A stretch of DNA of 64,000 nt from an uncultured Bacilli bacterium. Lineage in GTDB: Bacteria > Bacillota_I > Bacilli_A > RF39 > UBA660. Both the position numbers and the translations under genes were made by a program. The notes under the pieces were generated by a model. That model ran no database searches, had not been told where the DNA came from, and saw only the letters and a program-made list of their open reading frames with translations. The stretch spans positions 1,636-65,635 of the forward strand of contig CALVUX010000007.1 of assembly GCA_944363715.1 (NCBI GenBank), read 5' to 3'. Positions 2,421 to 46,541 of this stretch are shown piece after piece. Each line of letters begins with the position of its first letter. Position 1 is the first letter of the stretch.

Positions 2421-2648
2421 TGAAATGACTGTGATTAAGAAGTAGTAGTAAACGATTTCTTTAAAGAGAGTCTATGGTAGGTGGAAATAGATAAGAATAG
2501 TTTATGAATTCGTCTTAGGAGTTCCTATAACAAAATTATAGGCGTTAATTGCGTTAAGATTAATGAGTTAGTTACAATAACTATAAATTAAGGTGGTACA
2601 GTGTTAGTTCCTTTAACACCCTTAAGTTATAGTTATTTTTTTATTTTT
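2421..2648 (+). promoter_or_regulatory. T-box riboswitch leader, Phe specifier (UUC)
   Basis: Stem I elements AGAGA and GGTGGAAA are present, with the specifier context GAA-UUC-G (UUC at 2509-2511). The T-box sequence AAGGTGGTACAGTG is at 2590-2603. A terminator helix AACTATAAATTAAGG/CCTTAAGTTATAGTT is followed by a T-run. Confidence 0.75.
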
Positions 2649-27130: not shown

Positions 27131-27211
27131 TAAAATCAGTCCTTTCTTCTAAATAAGTATAGCATATTTTTTTAAATTTAGGTATAATATGCTTTGTTAG
27201 GGGGAATTTAT

Positions 27212-29419
27212 ATGTCAAAGAATTCTGAATTAATAAAAGAATTAAAAAATGGAAATAGTAATAGATGTGATTTCTTTAAAGAAAAAATTAAAGAAGAATT
27301 AAAGAAAAACAATATGGAAATCAATGATACTATTATTAATGATATCTTTAATAAAGCACTAGATACTTATACAGATGATATTAAGATACCTTTCTTATTT
27401 CATATTAAAGCAGTTATAAAGAATAAAGATAAAAAGAAAGAAACCGGAGACTTAAATAAACTTCAATATGATGTTATTAAACTATATTTAACTAAAGAAA
27501 ATAATAAATATTTATCTAAAATAGATATCGCTACTAGGTTATCTATTAAAATTGATGAGGTTATAGATATTATAGAGACTCTTAATAATGATAATAATTT
27601 AGATAAAATATTTCCTAATTATAAAGAAATGCTTAAAGATAGAAATGATTACTTTAAAAAGAAAGCAGTTGTTATATCTGAAAAGCAGATTATTTTATTA
27701 GTAGAATACTGTGGTGGTCTAAAGAAAGAGATGGATTTTAAAGCCCTTGCAAAGAAATATGATAAAACTACTATTGATATTAAAAATGAATTAAATAATA
27801 TCTTTAAACTATTAAAGACAGAAAATAATTTAACTATTTTATTAGATAGATATCCTAATATTAAGAATGCTCTTATAAGAAAAAGTAAATTATTTAATAT
27901 TTCTCTAGATATTAAAGAAGATATAGCAGTTAAACATATTGTAACTAGTGATTTTAAAAGAAAAGCCCATCTTAATAAAGATGATATTACAATGCTAAAA
28001 TTATTAGATAGTTATAATAAAAATGAAATAACCTGTGAAAAAATAAAAGAAGCTGGTTTTGATAGTGTCGCTAGTTTTGTTGATAAGAGAAATAGATTCT
28101 TTAGTAAACTTAGGACTAATGAAAACTTTTTTGATACTGTTAACGAGTTATATCCTAATTTAGGTATTGAAACTTTAATAGATATGCCTAGATTAACATA
28201 TTATGAATTTAAAGCTTTAGCACTTGTAGATGAACATTCTTATAAAAAGGTAATTGAAGATGAGAAATTAATTGAGGAAGATGTATTTAAAAATACTAAG
28301 TCTTTTAATAATATATTAAAGAATGCTATTAATAAGTTAAATGAAAGTGGATATCTATTAGAAAAAGTATCTTTAGTTCTTACTAATTTAAATGATTTAG
28401 AATTAGTTGATAATAAAAAGAAAAAAGATGATTTAAGTCTTTCTTTAATAGAGTTAAAAATATTAGAAACTTTAAATGACAATCCAAACTTAACAAATAG
28501 AGAGCTTGCTGCTATAGCAGGTTTTAAAAGTGAAGCTAGTTTTGTTAATAAAAAATATGAATTATTAACGAGAATTAACAATAATAAAATATTGGAATTA
28601 AAGGTTAAGAGACAATATCCTCATATTGTATTAAAAAAGGAAAATAGAAAAACTAAACTAAGTGATAAAAATATAGAATTACTTACTCTATTAGAAAAAA
28701 ATCTTTCTGATAAGGAAATGGCAGATACTTTAGAATTAGCGAATGAAAAGAGTTATTATACTGTTAAGAGAATATTATTTAAACAATTAGAAGAAAATGA
28801 ATCTCTTAAAAGAGATGCTTTAAGAAAGTTCCCTAACCTAATCTTAGATGATTATATTAAGAATCTTGCTATTAGATTTACAGAAAATGAAATAGTCTTT
28901 TTACAAGAGTTTTGTTTAATAGAAGATAATAATCTTATTTATCAAAGTGAAGAAGAAATCCTAAAGAAGCTTAACTTACAACCTAAGATGATAGAATTTG
29001 TTAAAACTACTTCTACTATTAAAGTTGTTAAAAATATGATTGTAGGTACTAATTTAGATGAATTATTATGGTCTAATTTTACTGATGAGTTTATTACTAG
29101 GGATAGTTTTAATGGTGATAATAGTATTTCTGTTAATAATTTAGAGTTTAAAGAGCAAATGAGTGATGATATATTAGAAGGTATCAAAAGACTTGAAGAG
29201 TCTATCTTTGGAGACTTTGTAGAGCAATGTACTTTAAAAGAAAAATTAGTTCTTGCTCTTAGATTAGGTTATTTTAATAAAAGATTTTTTACTAGTAGTG
29301 AAGTTGCTATGATTACAAAAATGGAAGAGATTAAAGTTATATCTCTAACTAAAAAGTGTTTAAAGATGTCTAGAAATAATTATATAGATGAAAAACAGAA
29401 GCAGAAGATTTTAATTTAA
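27212..29419 (+). CDS. large protein (736 aa) made of repeated sigma-70 region-4/LuxR-like HTH modules
   Basis: About 7 modules of the type L(S/T)xxxxxxLxLL-HTH, for example LSDKEMADTLELANEKSYYTVKRILFKQL and LTNRELAAIAGFKSEASFVNKKYELLTRI. Five of them are followed by a (Y/F)PN motif. A GGGGGA SD precedes the ATG at 27212. Confidence 0.6.
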   Translation: MSKNSELIKELKNGNSNRCDFFKEKIKEELKKNNMEINDTIINDIFNKALDTYTDDIKIPFLFHIKAVIKNKDKKKETGDLNKLQYDVIKLYLTKENNKYLSKIDIATRLSIKIDEVIDIIETLNNDNNLDKIFPNYKEMLKDRNDYFKKKAVVISEKQIILLVEYCGGLKKEMDFKALAKKYDKTTIDIKNELNNIFKLLKTENNLTILLDRYPNIKNALIRKSKLFNISLDIKEDIAVKHIVTSDFKRKAHLNKDDITMLKLLDSYNKNEITCEKIKEAGFDSVASFVDKRNRFFSKLRTNENFFDTVNELYPNLGIETLIDMPRLTYYEFKALALVDEHSYKKVIEDEKLIEEDVFKNTKSFNNILKNAINKLNESGYLLEKVSLVLTNLNDLELVDNKKKKDDLSLSLIELKILETLNDNPNLTNRELAAIAGFKSEASFVNKKYELLTRINNNKILELKVKRQYPHIVLKKENRKTKLSDKNIELLTLLEKNLSDKEMADTLELANEKSYYTVKRILFKQLEENESLKRDALRKFPNLILDDYIKNLAIRFTENEIVFLQEFCLIEDNNLIYQSEEEILKKLNLQPKMIEFVKTTSTIKVVKNMIVGTNLDELLWSNFTDEFITRDSFNGDNSISVNNLEFKEQMSDDILEGIKRLEESIFGDFVEQCTLKEKLVLALRLGYFNKRFFTSSEVAMITKMEEIKVISLTKKCLKMSRNNYIDEKQKQKILI

Positions 29420-34690: not shown

Positions 34691-34725
34691 ATAAAAATCT
34701 AGTATGTTTTATTTACACACTAGAT
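34691..34725 (-). terminator. intrinsic terminator of the 608-aa gene
   Basis: ATCTAGT-N15-ACTAGAT hairpin followed by TTTTAT on the - strand. Confidence 0.5.
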
Positions 34726-34750
34726 TATATACTGGCTAGATTACTGACAC

Positions 34751-36577
34751 CTAACTACCTAGAGAAAGGACAAACGGATCTGATTTAGTACCTATCCCTG
34801 AAGTTATCTGCACGTTAGATTTTAGATTAAAAGTTGGTCTAATACCATAATTAGTACTTAATGCAAAGTTCGAACTAGCACCACCAGCATCATAATTTAC
34901 ACATCTAACGGCACTAGAAGAATTTTTGGTCAAAGTCCAATAATGGATATTTTTATTATAATCATTAAATTGACCTGCCATTAATTCTCCTAATCTTAAG
35001 AGTCCTATCTCTACTGACGTTCTATTTGTAACTAAGCTACTCATATTAGAGTCATTATATTTTGATAACCTATAATTAATTCCAGGACCAACTGTACCCA
35101 AATACCATAAAGTATTATCTTCTATCATACTTGCTTGATCCACAGTTAAATAATTTATTAAATAATCTCCATTTAAGAATGTTCCCATTGTAGTTGCAAT
35201 AGAATAATTTGAACTGCTATTGTCAAAACCTAGTGCTTTAAATTTACCATTTTCTTTCAATGGTTCTGCACTTGTTATTTTCGTTAATCCAGGAACTTCA
35301 TGACTTACTATTCTATACAAAGTATTTTCTCCTGTTCCAAAGGTTATGTACTCACCACTATATCTACTTGAAACAAAAGTTCCAGATAAACTTCTATCAT
35401 TATCTCCAGCTAATCTATATGGATCTTCCTCTGTGCCTTTCCCATCGACAGTTTTTATTCCAGATCTTAAATTTATTGTTGGCCTAATTCCAATAGAATG
35501 ATGTGAATTTAAATTATTAGCAATACCTCCACTATAATTAATTGAATAAATATTTCCATCAGAAGTTGGAGTAATCGTTCTCCACCACAGCATATTGTTC
35601 AAATAACCATCAACAGGCGTTGTACCAGTGTAACTCATTACATATTCATATATATTCAAAAGTCCTACTGGATTTTCTACTGTTGTAGTTTTTGGTGGTT
35701 TACTTGTTTCTGTGGTCATCGTTGCATTCCACTTGCTATCCATTTTAATAAAATTCTCTGGTTCTCTTAAATTACCAAGAAAACCATCTACACTCGTATC
35801 ATTTAGCCACATTTCCATATGACTTCCTTTAAATGAACTACTATTATCATCATAAGGAATTGCACTTATATTCCACTGTGTCACTAGCTTAACACTATTA
35901 TCCGCAGGATCTATACTAACCGCTCTCCATATCTTTCCACTGTACCAAATATAATTATTTGGATTTTCTCCTGTTATAAATATTTGTTCACTATCACTTG
36001 TATTTATATTGTTCTTGCTATCTTTAAGTAATACTTTATATAACTCTACTCCTTCATACTCTTTAAATAGATGCCCATCACTTGGTAATACCAAATCATT
36101 ATAATCTAGTCCCACACTTACTCCTAAATTTATAGTTACACTATTACTAGATATATTATTAACTCTTATCTTATAAGTATTACTAGATCCTGAAGTATCT
36201 ATTTTCTCTAAATTCATTCCTGTTTCTACTGGGGGAATATTTATTCCTTCTTCATTTAGATAACCTATTTCTACATCGCTAGGTATATCGCCTATATAAT
36301 AAAAGTTAAACCTTGCTATTCTATTATTAGGATTACTTAAAGTTATAATGAAATCTTTACTACTATTAGGTGATACTGTTAAAGTGTTGCTATTACTCCC
36401 ATCTACTTCTAATTTGTAATTTAAACTACCTGTTACTATACTTATAGCATTACTCTTCTCTTTTGTTACTGTAAACATAGCATATGAAAAGTAACTTCCT
36501 AATATAAATAGAGTTATTATAATCATTACTAGCATATATATCTTACTAAAACTCGTTTCTAACAATAATCTTTTCAT
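34751..36577 (-). CDS. secreted/membrane-anchored protein (608 aa) with two repeated C-terminal modules
   Basis: N-terminal signal-anchor (IYMLVMIIITLFILGSYFSYAMF). The repeated module ends are IGIRPTINLRSGIKTVDGKGTEEDPYRL and YGIRPTFNLKSNVQITSGIGTKSDPFVL. Confidence 0.75.
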   Translation of the reverse strand: MKRLLLETSFSKIYMLVMIIITLFILGSYFSYAMFTVTKEKSNAISIVTGSLNYKLEVDGSNSNTLTVSPNSSKDFIITLSNPNNRIARFNFYYIGDIPSDVEIGYLNEEGINIPPVETGMNLEKIDTSGSSNTYKIRVNNISSNSVTINLGVSVGLDYNDLVLPSDGHLFKEYEGVELYKVLLKDSKNNINTSDSEQIFITGENPNNYIWYSGKIWRAVSIDPADNSVKLVTQWNISAIPYDDNSSSFKGSHMEMWLNDTSVDGFLGNLREPENFIKMDSKWNATMTTETSKPPKTTTVENPVGLLNIYEYVMSYTGTTPVDGYLNNMLWWRTITPTSDGNIYSINYSGGIANNLNSHHSIGIRPTINLRSGIKTVDGKGTEEDPYRLAGDNDRSLSGTFVSSRYSGEYITFGTGENTLYRIVSHEVPGLTKITSAEPLKENGKFKALGFDNSSSNYSIATTMGTFLNGDYLINYLTVDQASMIEDNTLWYLGTVGPGINYRLSKYNDSNMSSLVTNRTSVEIGLLRLGELMAGQFNDYNKNIHYWTLTKNSSSAVRCVNYDAGGASSNFALSTNYGIRPTFNLKSNVQITSGIGTKSDPFVLSLGS

Positions 36578-36601
36578 CTTCTTACTCCTTTCATTATTAC
36601 A

Positions 36602-36636
36602 CTATAAAAAGAATAGAATACTCCTACTCTATTCTT
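36602..36636 (-). terminator. intrinsic terminator/attenuator 25 nt upstream of the 608-aa gene start
   Basis: 12-bp hairpin AAGAAUAGAGUA-GGAG-UAUUCUAUUCUU (36609-36636) followed by UUUUUA on the - strand. Confidence 0.6.
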
Positions 36637-36663
36637 TTAAGCCATAATGAAAGAAAGTATTTA

Positions 36664-36723
36664 CTAGATACTTACTAAAGTACCCCCCCCCCAGGTAACA
36701 TATTGTGAACGTAATATTTTCAT
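36664..36723 (-). CDS. candidate 19-codon leader ORF (MKILRSQYVTWGGGTLVSI) containing the G10 tract
   Basis: The ATG at 36723 is preceded by GAAGG, and the stop TAG is at 36664-36666. Whether it is translated is unproven. Confidence 0.3.
   Translation of the reverse strand: MKILRSQYVTWGGGTLVSI
36683..36692. repeat. homopolymeric C10 (G10 on the coding - strand) tract
   Basis: TACCCCCCCCCCAGG read directly from the sequence. It is the longest G/C homopolymer I noticed in this AT-rich window. Confidence 0.95.
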
Positions 36724-36757
36724 ACTTTTACCTTCTTTCCTTATCTTTGATAATTTA

Positions 36758-36787
36758 ATTTTATCACATCATAAATAAATATGTAAA
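36758..36787 (-). promoter_or_regulatory. sigma-A type promoter (TTTACA-N18-TGaTAAAAT) for the leader ORF / 608-aa gene
   Basis: On the - strand, -35 is at 36782-36787 and the extended -10 TAAAAT at 36758-36763 with TG at 36765-36766. Confidence 0.5.
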
Positions 36788-44099: not shown

Positions 44100-44690
44100 T
44101 TAACCAATTACACCTGAAACTGTGCAACTTGCTGGATTACCATCAGCATCTTCTAATTGTGCATATGTTGTATTACTAATTCCTTTAAATAATTTTATTG
44201 TATCTCCTTTAGAAAGATCAGCTTGGAAATTTCCTTCACTACCAACGTCTTTTTCAACTACTAAATCACCATCAAGTGTACTTTCTAACAATACTCCAAA
44301 ACCATTGCCGACTTTATCTTCCATTTGAATAAAATATTCATACTTGTCTTGACCACTAGTTGTGTTATTAAATATTATAATATAACTATTATTTGTATAA
44401 TCTTGTCCAAATGAACTTTCATGAGAACCACTTTCAAGAGCAATAGAATTTGTTGGTACAGCTAAACATTGCCCTCTTGCAGGCATCAAATCTGAGTCGT
44501 ATTCTCCATTTACAAAACTAAGTCTTGCCGCATTAGCATATTGTAATGCTGTTGTAACAAATGTATCTTTCTTAGCATCTCTAATATAACCAGACATTGC
44601 TGTAATAGCTAGTGTCATCAATATAGCTAAAATAATGATAACAGCTAGTAATTCAATTAAAGTGAATCCCTTTCTATTAACTTTTCTCAT
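44100..44690 (-). CDS. type IV pilin / pseudopilin (prepilin-type N-terminal cleavage/methylation domain)
   Basis: The class III signal RKGFTLIELLAVIIILAIL is present. A GGAGG SD precedes the ATG at 44690 (MRKVNRKG...). Confidence 0.85.
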   Translation of the reverse strand: MRKVNRKGFTLIELLAVIIILAILMTLAITAMSGYIRDAKKDTFVTTALQYANAARLSFVNGEYDSDLMPARGQCLAVPTNSIALESGSHESSFGQDYTNNSYIIIFNNTTSGQDKYEYFIQMEDKVGNGFGVLLESTLDGDLVVEKDVGSEGNFQADLSKGDTIKLFKGISNTTYAQLEDADGNPASCTVSGVIG

Positions 44691-44736
44691 TACATTGACC
44701 TCCATATCTTACTCTTAAATCATAACAAAATTTCTA

Positions 44737-45249
44737 TTAACTGTCAATAATATTTGTAACAGTATATCCATTCAAATTAATTCCAACAACTGGAGTTATT
44801 ATGTTTAACTCTTCACCTTTTGCAACGTTTTTTCCTGCACTTTCTTTATTTAAATCATCTCTACTCATTAATGGTATTCCTCTTGTATCACCATCAAAAT
44901 TTTCAACAATAGTTGCCATATATTCATAACTATTGCCATTCCTTGCAACCACTACATATGAATTTTGCAAGTCATAACTTCCACCTTCAGGGCCTTCATT
45001 AAAATCACTTAAGTCCAAGTTACCTAATGGTATTACAATACAATTACCATTCGTAGGCAATTCAATATCAGTATTACTCCTTACTTCATATTCTGCTAAA
45101 GTAATCATTCTTTTAGCATCTTCAACATAAGTATTCTGCTTGTTTTTATCAATAGTACTCATTACATTAGGAACTGCAACAAGCATTAAAAGCGCAAGTA
45201 TTGCTATAGTCGCTAACAACTCTATTAATGTAAAACCTTTTTTATTCAT
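44737..45249 (-). CDS. type IV pilin / pseudopilin (prepilin-type N-terminal cleavage/methylation domain)
   Basis: MNKKGFTLIELLATIAILALL. Confidence 0.85.
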   Translation of the reverse strand: MNKKGFTLIELLATIAILALLMLVAVPNVMSTIDKNKQNTYVEDAKRMITLAEYEVRSNTDIELPTNGNCIVIPLGNLDLSDFNEGPEGGSYDLQNSYVVVARNGNSYEYMATIVENFDGDTRGIPLMSRDDLNKESAGKNVAKGEELNIITPVVGINLNGYTVTNIIDS

Positions 45250-45392: not shown

Positions 45393-46541
45393 ATGGTAAT
45401 ATATAGAGCATATAAATTTAGATTATATCCAAAAGAAGAACAAAGAATATTAATACATAAGACCTTTGGATGTAGTCGTTTTGTTTATAACTATTATCTA
45501 AATTATCAAAAAGAAAATGGAGTACAGAAATCATTTAATTTATGTAAAGATTTAAAAGAATTAGAAAACAATCACGAATATCTTAAAGAAGTAGATTCAT
45601 GCGCCTTAAGATGCTCTATATTTGATTTAGAAGATGGTTTTAATAACTTCTTTGCAAAAAGAAACGGATATCCAAATTTTAAGAGTAAGTTTGCAAGACA
45701 GTCTTATAGAACTAGCCTTATAAGAAGTACTTATAAAGGAAAAGAGTATAGTAATATAGAAGTAGATTTACTAACTAGATTTATAAAATTACCAAAATTA
45801 GGTAGAGTTAAAATAAGAGGATTTAGAAATAAAGAAAGAATAGAAGGAAAAATAGTAAACGCTACTATCTCAAGAGAAACAACAAATAAGTATTATGTAA
45901 GTGTATTAGTAGAAGAAGATTTGTTAGTAGAAAAAGTAACAGCTACTAGTATAGTAGGAATAGACTTAGGTATAAAAGATTTAGTTATAACAAGTGATGG
46001 TATTAAATATAGTAATGAGAAAATATTAACAAAGTTTGAAAAGAGATTAAAAAGATTACAAAGGAAATTATCAAGACAAGTAAAAGGAAGCAAGAATTAT
46101 TTAAAGACAAAAGAAAAGATAGCAAGAATACATGCTAAAATAAAGAATTATAGAAAACATTGTTTAAACGACATTGCTAATGAAATAGTAGATGAGCATG
46201 ACATTATAGTAACAGAGAGTTTAAAAGTAGCAGATATGTTTAAAGATAAGAGAAAAGCATTTAATAAAAGTCTATCAGATGCAAGTTTAAGTAAATTATG
46301 TTCTCTAATAGAATGGAAAAGTAAGATAAAAGGAAAGTATTATTATAAGATAAATACTTATTATCCGAGTAGTCAAATATGTAGTCACTGTGGTTATAAG
46401 AATAATGAAATAAAAGATTTAAGTATAAGAGAATATGACTGTCCGGAATGTGGAGTACATAATGATAGAGATATAAATGCAAGCTTAAACATATTATTAG
46501 AAGGTTTAAAATTACACTATAACTTACAAAGTTTAGTTTAA
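45393..46541 (+). CDS. tnpB: RNA-guided endonuclease TnpB (IS200/IS605 OrfB)
   Basis: 382 aa, with about 60 residue differences from copy 1 by manual alignment. The RuvC D/E/D contexts (GIDLGIKD, VTESL, NDRDINAS) and the CxxC...CxxC zinc ribbon are intact. Confidence 0.92.
   Translation: MVIYRAYKFRLYPKEEQRILIHKTFGCSRFVYNYYLNYQKENGVQKSFNLCKDLKELENNHEYLKEVDSCALRCSIFDLEDGFNNFFAKRNGYPNFKSKFARQSYRTSLIRSTYKGKEYSNIEVDLLTRFIKLPKLGRVKIRGFRNKERIEGKIVNATISRETTNKYYVSVLVEEDLLVEKVTATSIVGIDLGIKDLVITSDGIKYSNEKILTKFEKRLKRLQRKLSRQVKGSKNYLKTKEKIARIHAKIKNYRKHCLNDIANEIVDEHDIIVTESLKVADMFKDKRKAFNKSLSDASLSKLCSLIEWKSKIKGKYYYKINTYYPSSQICSHCGYKNNEIKDLSIREYDCPECGVHNDRDINASLNILLEGLKLHYNLQSLV

What the first reader, a model, noticed from the sequence alone, without database searches (positions are those of the whole stretch)
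36602..36787. G10 tract inside a 19-codon leader ORF followed by a terminator: candidate phase-variable translational attenuator for a 608-aa secreted protein
Seen in the sequence, on the - strand. A promoter TTTACA-N18-TGaTAAAAT (36787-36758) is followed by GAAGG and an ATG at 36723. The leader ORF is ATG AAA ATA TTA CGT TCA CAA TAT GTT ACC TGG GGG GGG GGT ACT TTA GTA AGT ATC TAG (stop at 36664-66). Then comes a 12-bp hairpin with a GGAG loop and a U-run (36636-36602). The SD and ATG of the 608-aa gene follow at 36577. The G10 run (36683-36692) lies inside the leader ORF and is conspicuous in a genome of about 27% GC. Frame analysis gives three outcomes:
- With G10 the ribosome stops about 27 nt before the hairpin.
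- With G9 it stops even earlier (…GTA CTT TAG).
- With G11 the ORF extends (…GGG TAC TTT AGT AAG TAT CTA GTA AAT ACT TTC TTT CAT TAT GGC TTA AAA GAA TAG) and terminates at 36631-36629, inside the 5' arm of the terminator.
In the G11 case a translating ribosome would melt the terminator. Inference: slipped-strand changes of the G tract could switch read-through into the surface-protein gene ON and OFF by coupling translation and termination. Homopolymer phase variation is well established. This particular leader-peptide/terminator coupling is my hypothesis.
Basis: partly seen in the sequence, partly recalled or inferred. Interest (0 to 1): 0.7.

Follow-up and report, generated by a model that had tools for sequence, protein, structure and literature searches.

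The report
Poly-G switch in a leader-peptide attenuator
A run of ten G's sits inside a tiny upstream reading frame followed by a transcription stop signal, and comparison with about 150 related copies indicates that gaining or losing one G switches a surface-protein gene on or off, a mechanism shown before only in Streptococcus gallolyticus and with a different kind of repeat.

Summary
On the - strand the order is: promoter, SD and ATG, a 19-codon ORF containing G10, a hairpin with a U-run, then the SD and ATG of a 608-aa membrane-anchored DUF6273 protein.

G10 is the only G/C run longer than 6 in 64 kb. The element is one of at least 153 homologous leaders in uncultured gut Bacilli (Ca. Onthousia and relatives), with up to 20 or more per MAG. 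Tracts range from G6 to G13, with G9 the mode.

Contigs with identical flanks differ only in tract length. In 116 of 118 complete copies exactly one reading frame stays open from the tract to a stop 1-8 nt before the end of the terminator's 5' arm. The other two frames stop before a conserved CU-rich box that can pair with either SD. Spacer length varies, but the open path is always kept.

No RNA antiterminator is conserved, so only a ribosome can oppose the hairpin.

The principle is already published for S. gallolyticus pil1/pil3, which use GCAGA repeats. This is therefore a new, non-homologous, homopolymer-based and massively multi-copy variant. No expression data exist.

The parts
36758..36787 (-). 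Promoter: -35 TTTACA (36787-36782), 18-nt spacer, extended -10 TGaTAAAAT (36766-36758)
   Evidence: An extended -10 (TGnTAnnnT) is present in 74 of 99 distinct family upstream regions, against 17% of shuffles. Its most common distance is 34 nt before the leader ATG, and the window's distance is also 34.
36729..36739 (-). Leader Shine-Dalgarno region GAAAGAAGGTA. It is also complementary to the CU-rich box.
   Evidence: It is conserved in most family copies. The predicted probability of box:leader-SD pairing in the terminated leader RNA is 0.80 on average.
36664..36723 (-). Leader ORF as assembled with G10: MKILRSQYVTWGGGTLVSI*, stop TAG 36666-36664
   Evidence: An in-frame SD and start codon are present in 105 of 118 relatives.
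36693..36709 (-). Conserved block TTCACAATATGTTACCT (family consensus GTTTACAAnnnGTTACCT, encoding L-Q-x-V-T) directly 5' of the tract
   Evidence: The block is conserved at third codon positions as well. The reason is unexplained.
36683..36692 (-). G10 homopolymer (codons W-G-G-G), the hypermutable switch
   Evidence: One search shows it is unique in the window. One search shows G9 in L002. The family spans G6-G13. Sets of contigs with identical flanks differ only here.
36675..36677 (-). TAG stop used when the tract length is 3n (G9, G12)
   Evidence: In most relatives this stop lies at +5 after the tract.
36666..36685 (-). Small spacer hairpin GGGUACUU-UAGU-AAGUAUCU that uses the last three G's of the tract
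   Evidence: MFE structures. Many relatives have a hairpin in the spacer, but its sequence is not conserved.
36644..36659 (-). CU-rich anti-SD box TACTTTCTTTCATTAT. It pairs with the main gene's SD or, alternatively, with the leader SD.
   Evidence: the extended helix has -28.7 kcal/mol. The box:main-SD duplex averages -14.3 kcal/mol in the family, against -8.7 for shuffles. Cognate pairs are more stable than non-cognate pairs (none of 2000 permutations reached the cognate mean). Leader-SD:box duplexes average -13.5 against -7.5.
36606..36638 (-). Intrinsic terminator: 14-bp stem (5' arm 36638-36625, loop GGAG, 3' arm 36620-36607) followed by a T run
   Evidence: -13.3 kcal/mol. In the family there are 44 distinct arm pairs. 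Positions 0-10 from the stem base are almost all canonical or G-U, with several pair types per position; the apical positions pair less regularly. The mean energy is -11.5 kcal/mol and the U run is 5-6. The hairpin appears in the MFE in 96% of stem pairs.
36629..36631 (-). TAG stop of the read-through frame (G8 or G11), inside the terminator's 5' arm
   Evidence: An equivalent stop lies 1-8 nt before the end of the 5' arm in 116 of 118 relatives.
36583..36599 (-). 3' strand of the SD-sequestering helix, TAATAATGAAAGGAGTA, including the main SD AAGGAG (36590-36585)
34751..36577 (-). Regulated gene: a 608-aa protein with an N-terminal transmembrane helix, a beta-sandwich, and two DUF6273-type repeats carrying hypervariable loops
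   Evidence: PF19789, E = 1e-10. One search shows an internal repeat. locates hypervariable segments at about residues 331-365 and 541-580. The AF2 model has pLDDT 76.5. Its only significant PDB match is the T. ramosa IgA peptidase 9qa6, E = 1.2e-6; that protein's N-terminal domain is annotated DUF6273, but which of its residues aligned was not reported.
34696..34726 (-). Terminator-like hairpin after the regulated gene

Best explanation
This is a phase-variable leader-peptide transcription attenuator.

Transcription starts about 28 nt upstream of a short ORF that has a strong SD. Slipped-strand mispairing at the G tract inside that ORF changes its reading frame heritably and reversibly.

Two frames are early-stop frames. 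In this locus G9 stops at +5 after the tract. G10 stops immediately before a CU-rich box. In both, the ribosome leaves before it reaches the attenuator. The 14-bp hairpin and U-run then terminate most transcripts. In any read-through RNA the CU-rich box base-pairs with the SD of the structural gene.

The third frame (G8 or G11 here) carries the ribosome across the box and into the 5' arm of the terminator. It stops only 1-8 nt before the end of that arm. A ribosome following RNA polymerase therefore prevents hairpin formation and melts the box:SD helix. The 608-aa DUF6273 surface protein is then transcribed and translated.

Basis of each step:
- Shown here: the anatomy, hypervariability of the tract between otherwise identical assemblies, conservation of the leader ORF, conservation of the one-frame-in-three geometry, covariation of the terminator and of the box:SD helix, and the absence of an RNA antiterminator.
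- Inferred: that the leader is translated, that the hairpin terminates transcription, and that the read-through frame is the ON state.
- Established elsewhere: the same logic was demonstrated genetically in S. gallolyticus pil1/pil3.
For: Anatomy and frames are given.

Tract variation:
- G10, G10 and G9 occur for this very gene, with 271 flanking bases identical.
- All 3 instance pairs with 0/350 flank mismatches differ in tract length.
- Contigs encoding identical proteins vary: P0024 has G9 nine times and G8 once, P0014 has G9 six times and G10 once, and P0045 has G7 and G9.
- Across the family: G9 91, G10 30, G8 11, G11 5, G7 3, G13 2, plus interrupted ('locked') tracts.

Leader translation: an SD and start codon are in frame in 105 of 118 copies, and the frame is kept through 7-34 variable codons.

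Frame geometry:
- In 116 of 118 copies exactly one frame reaches a stop 1-8 nt before the end of the 5' arm, and in 70 of them it is exactly 2 nt before. The other two frames always stop before the box.
- All 15 spacer sequence clusters keep that frame open. The joint shuffle probability is 2.7e-7.
- The phase of the read-through frame differs between subfamilies (n mod 3 = 2 in 86, 1 in 15, 0 in 15). Indels have therefore occurred and the open path was restored each time.

Structures:
- Terminator: compensatory pair types and a mean of -11.5 kcal/mol.
- No conserved antiterminator.
- The box pairs with the main SD and with the leader SD, with a cognate advantage in both cases.
- Promoter conserved at a fixed distance.

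Biology:
- 78 of 80 downstream genes belong to one paralogous family of membrane-anchored proteins.
- There are 7 to 20 or more leaders per MAG, of which 0-2 are in the read-through frame. This is what an antigen family with few members ON would look like.

Precedent: PMC3894217.
Against: - No transcript, ribosome or protein data exist for this uncultured organism.
- Only 13 of 117 copies are assembled in the read-through frame, and G9 dominates. This may reflect a mutational optimum rather than selection for OFF.
- Poly-G lengths in short-read assemblies are error-prone, and L002 has only about 3x coverage.
- The window's hairpin has just 2 G-C pairs and was missed by the terminator scan.
- About 25 relatives carry what looks like a second promoter between the terminator and the gene. 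In those the leader cannot be the only gate.
- Some paralogues have no leader at all.
- In B. subtilis, transcription outruns translation (my knowledge, Johnson et al. 2020). That would weaken ribosome-mediated antitermination unless RNA polymerase pauses.
- The near-invariant nucleotides GTTTACAAnnnGTTACCT, including third codon positions, are not explained by the model.
Confidence: 0.75

Rival explanations
1. Non-heritable recoding. RNA-polymerase slippage or ribosomal frameshifting on the G run puts a constant fraction of ribosomes into the read-through frame. The leader then sets a low, fixed expression level, and DNA tract-length differences are incidental.
For: Runs of 9-10 identical bases are long enough for transcriptional slippage in other systems (my knowledge). 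Most copies sit one step from the read-through frame. GGGGG resembles an SD and could promote pausing.
Against: DNA-level length differences are seen between otherwise identical contigs. Tracts range over G6-G13 and include interrupted versions, which is typical of contingency loci. This mechanism could act on top of DNA slippage and would not replace it.
Confidence: 0.1
2. RNA-structure or sRNA switch without translation. The G repeat pairs with the cis CU-rich box (CUUUCUUUC) or with a C/U-rich trans sRNA, as RepG does with the tlpB leader in H. pylori. Tract length would then tune SD accessibility or RNA stability.
For: The 9-nt CU box is formally complementary to G9 through G-C and G-U pairs. 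A variable G repeat in an mRNA leader is a known sRNA target (PMC8295292, listed).
Against: The predicted tract:box pairing probability is only 0.06, against 0.80 for box:leader-SD. This model does not explain the conserved SD and ATG, the open frame upstream of the tract, or the mod-3 preservation of one open frame down to the terminator.
Confidence: 0.06
3. The leader and terminator form an independent small gene or transcriptional insulator. The G tract varies only the C-terminus of a 15-31-aa peptide, and the surface-protein gene is expressed from elsewhere.
For: About 25 relatives have a promoter-like insert after the terminator. The read-through-frame peptide carries a conserved ..TFFH.. 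motif.
Against: In the window and in 84 relatives only 20-40 nt separate the terminator from the main ATG, which leaves no room for a promoter. The TFFH motif is simply the translation of the anti-SD box, whose pairing covaries with the SDs. Spacer-encoded residues are not conserved (15 unrelated spacer types). The leader is linked to one protein family in 78 of 80 cases.
Confidence: 0.05
4. Sequencing or assembly artefact. The tract length is really constant, and the leader is an ordinary attenuator that does not vary.
For: Homopolymers are error-prone. Many contigs break inside the leader. L002 has low coverage.
Against: Different paralogues within single MAGs at 28-40x coverage carry G8, G9 and G10. 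Lengths from G6 to G13 and interrupted tracts occur. A G10 run in a 27% G+C genome that otherwise avoids homopolymers needs an explanation in any case.
Confidence: 0.03

Closest known systems
Streptococcus gallolyticus pil1 / pil3 leader-peptide phase-variable attenuator (Danne et al. 2014, PMC3894217)
   Same: A simple-sequence repeat lies inside a promoter-proximal leader ORF, and an intrinsic terminator lies between the leader and the structural genes. Some repeat numbers place the leader stop well upstream of the hairpin, giving low expression. Others place it within or after the hairpin, giving ribosome-induced antitermination. The target is a surface structure, and the host is a gut-associated Firmicute.
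   Different: The repeat here is a mononucleotide G run, not 13-23 copies of GCAGA, and there is no sequence homology. Only one of three frames reads through here, whereas in pil1 out-of-frame changes in either direction (21 or 23 repeats) were reported to give longer peptides. The read-through stop is held at a fixed position inside the 5' arm. An extra CU-rich box can sequester the leader SD or the main SD. There are 7 to 20 or more copies per genome instead of two. The targets are DUF6273 membrane proteins, not sortase pili. The present case has no experimental support.
Classical ribosome-mediated attenuators (E. coli trp, his, pyrBI leaders)
   Same: A leader peptide, an intrinsic terminator, and a ribosome position that decides whether the hairpin forms. 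As in pyrBI, a ribosome close behind the polymerase physically blocks the terminator.
   Different: There is no run of regulatory codons and no metabolic signal. No conserved 2:3 antiterminator hairpin exists. The input is a heritable frameshift, not ribosome stalling.
Contingency loci with intragenic or promoter homopolymers (Campylobacter, Neisseria, Haemophilus; Treponema tpr and Moraxella uspA1 poly-G)
   Same: A G/C homopolymer of 8-11 changes length by slippage and gives stochastic ON/OFF switching of surface proteins. Many loci per small genome form a 'phasome'.
   Different: The tract is neither in the structural ORF nor between the -35 and -10 elements. It lies in a separate upstream ORF, and the structural protein is never truncated.
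Clostridioides difficile cwpV and flgB switches
   Same: Phase variation acts after transcription initiation, through premature termination in the 5' leader of a surface-protein operon in a low-G+C Firmicute.
   Different: Those switches work by site-specific DNA inversion (RecV). The inversion creates or removes a terminator or a Rho-dependent site. They involve no leader peptide and no homopolymer.
H. pylori tlpB G-repeat / RepG sRNA
   Same: A G repeat of variable length in an mRNA leader sets expression post-transcriptionally, and a C/U-rich partner sequence exists.
   Different: That system uses a trans-acting sRNA and gradual control of translation. Here the repeat lies inside a translated uORF, and the predicted G:CU pairing is weak.

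Membership tests
SSR-in-leader-peptide transcription attenuation (S. gallolyticus pil1/pil3 type) | Short ORF with SD and start codon between the promoter and the structural gene | tested here: met
   Window. 105 of 118 relatives. Promoter conserved at 34 nt.
SSR-in-leader-peptide transcription attenuation (S. gallolyticus pil1/pil3 type) | Hypermutable simple-sequence repeat inside the leader ORF, varying in length between clones or strains | tested here: met
   G10 against G9 with identical flanks. 3 of 3 identical-flank pairs differ. Same-gene contigs show G7-G10. The evidence is at assembly level only, not from reads.
SSR-in-leader-peptide transcription attenuation (S. gallolyticus pil1/pil3 type) | Intrinsic terminator between the leader ORF and the structural gene | tested here: met
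   14-bp stem and U run, -13.3 kcal/mol. Compensatory changes across 44 arm variants. Termination activity itself was not tested.
SSR-in-leader-peptide transcription attenuation (S. gallolyticus pil1/pil3 type) | The repeat number decides whether the leader stop lies well upstream of the hairpin or within/after it | tested here: met
   Window. 116 of 118 relatives. 15 of 15 spacer types.
SSR-in-leader-peptide transcription attenuation (S. gallolyticus pil1/pil3 type) | Read-through depends on translation of the leader (ATG and stop-codon mutants) and on the terminator (deletion locks ON) | not testable with these tools
   This needs reporter genetics. The organism is uncultured.
SSR-in-leader-peptide transcription attenuation (S. 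gallolyticus pil1/pil3 type) | Common descent: GCAGA pentanucleotide repeats upstream of sortase-pilus operons | tested here: not met
   The repeat is a mononucleotide. The target is a DUF6273 protein. No GCAGA array is present. It is therefore an analogue, not a homologue.
Amino-acid-sensing leader-peptide attenuators (trp/his type) | Conserved alternative antiterminator hairpin that competes with the terminator | tested here: not met
   Before the 3' arm is made, only 20% of 5'-arm bases are paired. The terminator is in the MFE for 96% of stem pairs.
Promoter-spacer homopolymer phase variation (Bordetella fim, Neisseria opc/porA type) | Tract lies between or next to the -35 and -10 hexamers | tested here: not met
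   The tract starts 66 nt downstream of the -10 element and lies inside an ORF. Using the internal TTTACA as a -35 would give a 20-23-nt spacer (my reading).
Intragenic homopolymer contingency genes (Campylobacter/Neisseria type) | Tract lies inside the structural gene, so length changes truncate the protein | tested here: not met
   The 608-aa ORF is intact and has no G run longer than 5.
Rfam cis-regulatory RNA families | Match to a curated covariance model | tested here: not met
   No gathering-score hit in the region. Only chance-level hits at E <= 10.
sRNA-targeted G-repeat leaders (H. pylori tlpB/RepG) | C/U-rich partner RNA pairs with the G repeat | tested here: inconclusive
   A cis CU box exists, but its predicted pairing probability is 0.06. 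A trans sRNA could not be searched for.

The most novel reading that the evidence does not exclude
The leader may be the control unit of a genome-wide combinatorial surface-variation system in reduced-genome gut Bacilli. Twenty or more poly-G leader attenuators per MAG would each gate a DUF6273 membrane protein whose two lectin-like loops are hypervariable between paralogues.

The switch may have three states rather than two. In the G9-type frame the ribosome leaves early. In the G10-type frame the ribosome parks on the anti-SD box. In the G8/G11-type frame there is full antitermination and SD unmasking.

The conserved leader of about 100 nt may also serve as a recombination substrate that reshuffles promoters and genes between paralogues.
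Probability: 0.3. Interest if true: 0.75.

Novelty: new variant of a known kind. Interest (0 to 1): 0.6.

Why it matters
It would be the second, independently evolved example of phase variation acting through a leader peptide and a terminator, and the first to use a homopolymer. That would show the S. gallolyticus mechanism is a general design and not a curiosity.

The element occurs at least 150 times with different spacers, so the family is a natural mutagenesis series that already displays the rule: one frame in three must reach the terminator stem.

It also reveals a large phase-variable repertoire of putative ligand-binding surface proteins. More than 3,000 protein clusters exist, all unnamed. 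The host lineage is uncultured and lives in human, chicken and other animal guts.

There is a practical point for annotation. Pipelines would call these genes intact and 'on', although most are probably silent.

Tried and rejected
- Riboswitch or other known RNA: the Rfam gathering and E <= 10 scans found nothing relevant.
- Exact-match searches for this species' leader returned nothing in genome contigs or in metagenome contigs.
- RNAalifold on a MAFFT alignment of 54 leaders gave no structure, because the two terminator subtypes were aligned out of register. I replaced it with arm-anchored pair counts and with duplex-energy permutation tests.
- Promoter-spacer hypothesis, with the internal TTTACA as -35: the spacing would be 20-23 nt, so I rejected it.
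- trp-like 2:3 antiterminator: not conserved.
- G-tract:CU-box pairing: the predicted probability is 0.06.
- Other copies or paralogues in the window: none.
- NCBIfam and PDB sequence searches with the 608-aa protein: no hits.
- Literature searches for a homopolymer-in-uORF attenuator and for Onthousia phase variation found nothing beyond Danne et al..
- Site-specific recombination at the conserved block was considered, because the same gene appears behind different leader halves. The junctions are not at a fixed site, and mis-assembly across the repeat cannot be excluded.
Full report
OBSERVATION

- TTTACA-N18-TGaTAAAAT at 36787-36758
- SD GAAAGAAGGTA at 36739-36729
- ATG at 36723
- G10 at 36692-36683
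- a 19-codon ORF, MKILRSQYVTWGGGTLVSI*, ending at 36666-36664
- a hairpin with a GGAG loop and a T run
- the SD and ATG (36577) of a 608-aa ORF

The stem is 14 bp (36638-36625 paired with 36620-36607), with a predicted energy of -13.3 kcal/mol. Rebuilding the tract in silico confirms the frames. G9 and G12 stop at 36677-75. G7 and G10 stop at 36666-64. G8 and G11 read on to TAG at 36631-29, inside the 5' arm.

The tract is not a chance event. It is the only G or C run longer than 6 in 64 kb. Even A/T runs do not exceed 8 in this 27% G+C window. The leader folds with z = -5.5 relative to shuffles.

Two caveats apply. The promoter match alone is no better than chance for this A+T-rich region. 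The simple terminator scan missed the hairpin because it has only two G-C pairs.

WHAT THE FOLD ADDS

The minimum-free-energy structure extends the terminator stem outward. A CU-rich box, TACTTTCTTTCATTAT (36659-36644), pairs with TAATAATGAAAGGAGTA (36599-36583), which contains the SD of the 608-aa gene (-28.7 kcal/mol for the composite helix). The same box is also the complement of the leader's own SD. In the terminated leader RNA it is predicted to pair with that SD instead.

No Rfam family matches.

THE LOCUS IS ONE OF A LARGE FAMILY

Two other assemblies encode the identical protein. L001 has G10. L002 has G9, and the other 271 aligned bases are identical.

Relatives of the protein in GTDB genomes come from uncultured Bacilli, 'Tenericutes' and Candidatus Onthousia MAGs. 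Several carry the same leader with G9 or G10.

Pattern scans with the conserved block in front of the tract retrieved many more copies. I count 153 unique instances. Their G+C is 0.24-0.30, and they come from chicken, human and other gut metagenomes.

The architecture is constant:
1. an extended -10 promoter
2. SD GAAAGAAGGTA
3. an ATG
4. a leader ORF of 7-34 codons ending in (R/C)-L-Q-x-V-T-W-G-G
5. the G tract
6. a variable spacer
7. the box TTACTTTCTTTCAT
8. the terminator
9. an SD
10. the ATG of a protein with a basic N-terminus and a hydrophobic N-terminal segment

Of 80 complete downstream proteins, 78 form one homologous cluster of 500-650 aa. The protein database holds more than 3,166 clusters with E <= 1e-20, none of them named.

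Individual MAGs carry 7 to 20 or more leaders. Some paralogues lack the leader altogether.

THE TRACT IS HYPERVARIABLE

Family tract lengths are G9 (91), G10 (30), G8 (11), G11 (5), G7 (3), G13 (2) and a few G6. Several tracts are interrupted, such as GGGGAGGGG or GGGGTGGG.

The only three pairs of instances with 0/350 mismatches in their flanks all differ in tract length: G10/G9, G9/G10 and G9/G11.

Contigs from different samples that encode exactly the same protein give further examples:
- P0024: G9 in nine contigs and G8 in one. The G8 contig (L240) has the same flanks as four of the G9 contigs.
- P0014: G9 in six and G10 in one.
- P0050: G9 in six.
- P0072: G9, G8 and an interrupted tract.
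- P0045: G7 and G9.

The tract therefore changes much faster than the surrounding sequence. The evidence comes from assemblies, not from reads.

THE FRAME LOGIC IS CONSERVED

An SD and a start codon lie in the V-T-W frame in 105 of 118 complete copies, although the sequence and length of the N-terminal part differ widely.

Downstream of the tract, 116 of 118 copies have exactly one frame class that stays open as far as a TAG or TAA located 1-8 nt before the end of the terminator's 5' arm. In 70 cases it is exactly 2 nt before the end. The other two frames always end before the box, typically at +5 and at a stop 5 nt before the box motif, i.e. within a few nucleotides of its 5' end.

The distance from the tract to that stop ranges from 38 to 87 nt. 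The spacers fall into 15 sequence clusters, and all 15 keep the in-phase frame open. When the spacers are shuffled, the mean probability per cluster is 0.40 and the product is 2.7e-7.

The tract length that gives read-through is 3n+2 in 86 copies, 3n+1 in 15 and 3n in 15. Indels have shifted the phase during evolution, and the open path was retained each time. This is hard to explain unless ribosomes reading into the hairpin matter.

As assembled, only 13 of 117 copies are in the read-through frame. That is 0-2 per MAG.

THE RNA ELEMENTS

Terminator. The 44 distinct arm pairs are almost entirely canonical or G-U at stem positions 0-10 from the base, with two to four pair types per position; the apical positions are less regular. 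The mean energy is -11.5 kcal/mol, and the U run is 5-6.

Antiterminator. Before the 3' arm is transcribed, only 20% of 5'-arm bases are predicted to be paired. The terminator is present in the MFE of the full leader for 96% of its pairs. There is thus no conserved RNA antiterminator, and only a ribosome could oppose the hairpin.

Box and main SD. Duplexes average -14.3 kcal/mol, against -8.7 for shuffled partners and -12.9 for non-cognate partners (none of 2000 permutations reached the cognate mean).

Box and leader SD. Duplexes average -13.5 kcal/mol against -7.5. In terminated leader RNA the predicted pairing probability is 0.80. For tract:box it is 0.06.

Promoter. An extended -10 is found in 74 of 99 distinct upstream regions, against 17% of shuffles. 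Its most common distance is 34 nt before the leader ATG, and the window's distance is exactly 34.

MECHANISM

Slippage in the G tract sets the leader frame. One frame in three takes the ribosome through the anti-SD box and into the terminator stem. This prevents termination and unmasks the structural gene's SD. The other two frames release the ribosome early, and the transcript terminates.

In this window G10 (as assembled) and G9 (L002) are early-stop states. G11 or G8, each one step away from one of them, would be the read-through state.

The geometry fits. A stop placed at the apical end of the 5' arm puts the front of a terminating ribosome over the loop and part of the 3' arm. It would be roughly in contact with a polymerase sitting on the U run. 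This last point is my inference from published ribosome and RNA-polymerase footprints.

Which state is ON remains inferred.

COMPARISON WITH WHAT IS KNOWN

The principle is published. In S. gallolyticus, GCAGA repeats inside a leader-peptide ORF upstream of pil1 and pil3 vary in number. Out-of-frame changes lengthen the peptide, so that its stop lies within or after a terminator. Ribosome-induced destabilisation of the hairpin then raises transcription. This was shown with ATG, stop-codon and terminator-deletion mutants (PMC3894217).

The present element meets every structural criterion of that mechanism, but it is not homologous to it. The differences are:
- a mononucleotide repeat
- only one permissive frame
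- a fixed stop position in the stem
- an additional anti-SD box
- a different target family
- tens of copies per genome

It is not a trp-type attenuator, because there is no antiterminator. It is not a promoter-spacer tract. It is not an intragenic contingency tract.

My literature searches found no homopolymer-in-uORF attenuator and nothing on phase variation in this lineage.

THE REGULATED PROTEIN

Pfam finds DUF6273 (E = 1e-10). The two halves of the ectodomain are internally repeated.

An AlphaFold model (best model pLDDT 76.5 and pTM 0.72; the other four models are poor) shows an N-terminal helix spanning residues 10-47, a beta-sandwich, and two further domains. Its only significant PDB match is the Thomasclavelia ramosa IgA peptidase (9qa6, E = 1.2e-6). 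The N-terminal domain of that protein is annotated DUF6273.

DUF6273 domains in phage receptor-binding proteins have been described as C-type-lectin-like and as targets of diversity-generating retroelements (PMC10743442).

Among 30 paralogues, variability peaks sharply at residues ~331-365 and ~541-580. Each segment lies just before a conserved GIRPxxNL motif. A variable ligand-binding or antigenic surface protein is the most plausible reading, but the function is unknown.

OPEN POINTS

- About 25 relatives have a promoter-like or operator-like insert of about 100 nt between the terminator and the gene.
- The same coding sequence appears behind different leader 5' halves in different samples, and many contigs end inside the leader. 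This could be recombination or mis-assembly.
- The block GTTTACAAnnnGTTACCT is conserved at the nucleotide level, and I cannot explain why.
- G9 dominates the length distribution.

VERDICT

The finding is a new variant of a known kind, of moderate to high interest.

Noticed in passing
L051, L067, L121, L160, L174, L175, L181, L190, L196, L199, L219 (type a); L014 near 2900, L015, L084, L139, L155, L187, L217 (type b): About 25 family members carry a conserved insert of about 100 nt between the leader terminator and the gene's SD. Type (a) contains TTGATA-N17-TGnTAATAT, a full promoter consensus. Type (b) contains the perfect palindrome CTGGTTATATAACCAG followed by TATAAT, which looks like an operator. 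These paralogues seem to have a second, possibly regulated, promoter downstream of the attenuator.
   Followed up: partly
L232-L241, L242-L248, L258-L264 (upstream 260 nt of each gene): Identical coding sequences (P0024, P0014, P0045) sit behind different promoters and leader 5' halves in different samples. The junctions lie near 'aaataaatactagcacccgtttacaa' or after the terminator. Many contigs end inside the leader. This is either recombination between paralogous leaders or mis-assembly across the repeat of about 100 nt.
   Followed up: partly
L078 1988-2116: Two leader 5' units lie in tandem, each with its own G tract (G9 and G10). The first lacks a terminator. Long leaders elsewhere contain decayed copies of the motif (..CAATTCTGGGGTAAA..). 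This suggests repeated internal duplication of the leader.
   Followed up: no
L134, L155, L178, L199, L211, L256, L004 near 760: Some tracts are interrupted (GGGGAGGGG, GGGGTGGG, GGGGGGAGGG, GGAGGGGGG). These should be much less mutable, so the copies are probably locked. One of them, L155, is locked in the read-through frame.
   Followed up: partly
window 34751-36577 (-), protein residues ~331-365 and ~541-580: Variability between paralogues is concentrated in two loops, one in each DUF6273-type repeat, just before a conserved GIRPxxNL motif. The position in the fold is reminiscent of DGR variable regions, but I did not look for a DGR.
   Followed up: partly
window 2422-2626 (+): A T-box leader (RF00230, 109.6 bits) is the only Rfam hit at gathering score in the window.
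   Followed up: no
window 45393-46541 (+): A 382-aa TnpB-type ORF (OrfB_IS605, HTH_OrfB_IS605 and Cas12f1-like TNB domains) lies next to two genes with type IV pilin N-terminal methylation motifs (44100-45249, - strand).
   Followed up: no
whole window: Homopolymers are generally avoided. At 73% A+T the longest A run is 7 and the longest T run is 8. Apart from the G10/C10, no G or C run exceeds 6.
   Followed up: no
window 36693-36709 (-) and all family copies: The block GTTTACAAnnnGTTACCT in front of the tract is nearly invariant, including third codon positions and the rare Thr codon ACC. The middle codon is free. GTTAC recurs a third time just before the box. The attenuator model does not explain this.
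   Followed up: no
window 27194-29419 (+): A 741-aa ORF with only a weak winged-helix hit is transcribed divergently from rbfA. Its repetitive, lysine-rich sequence has no family assignment.
   Followed up: no
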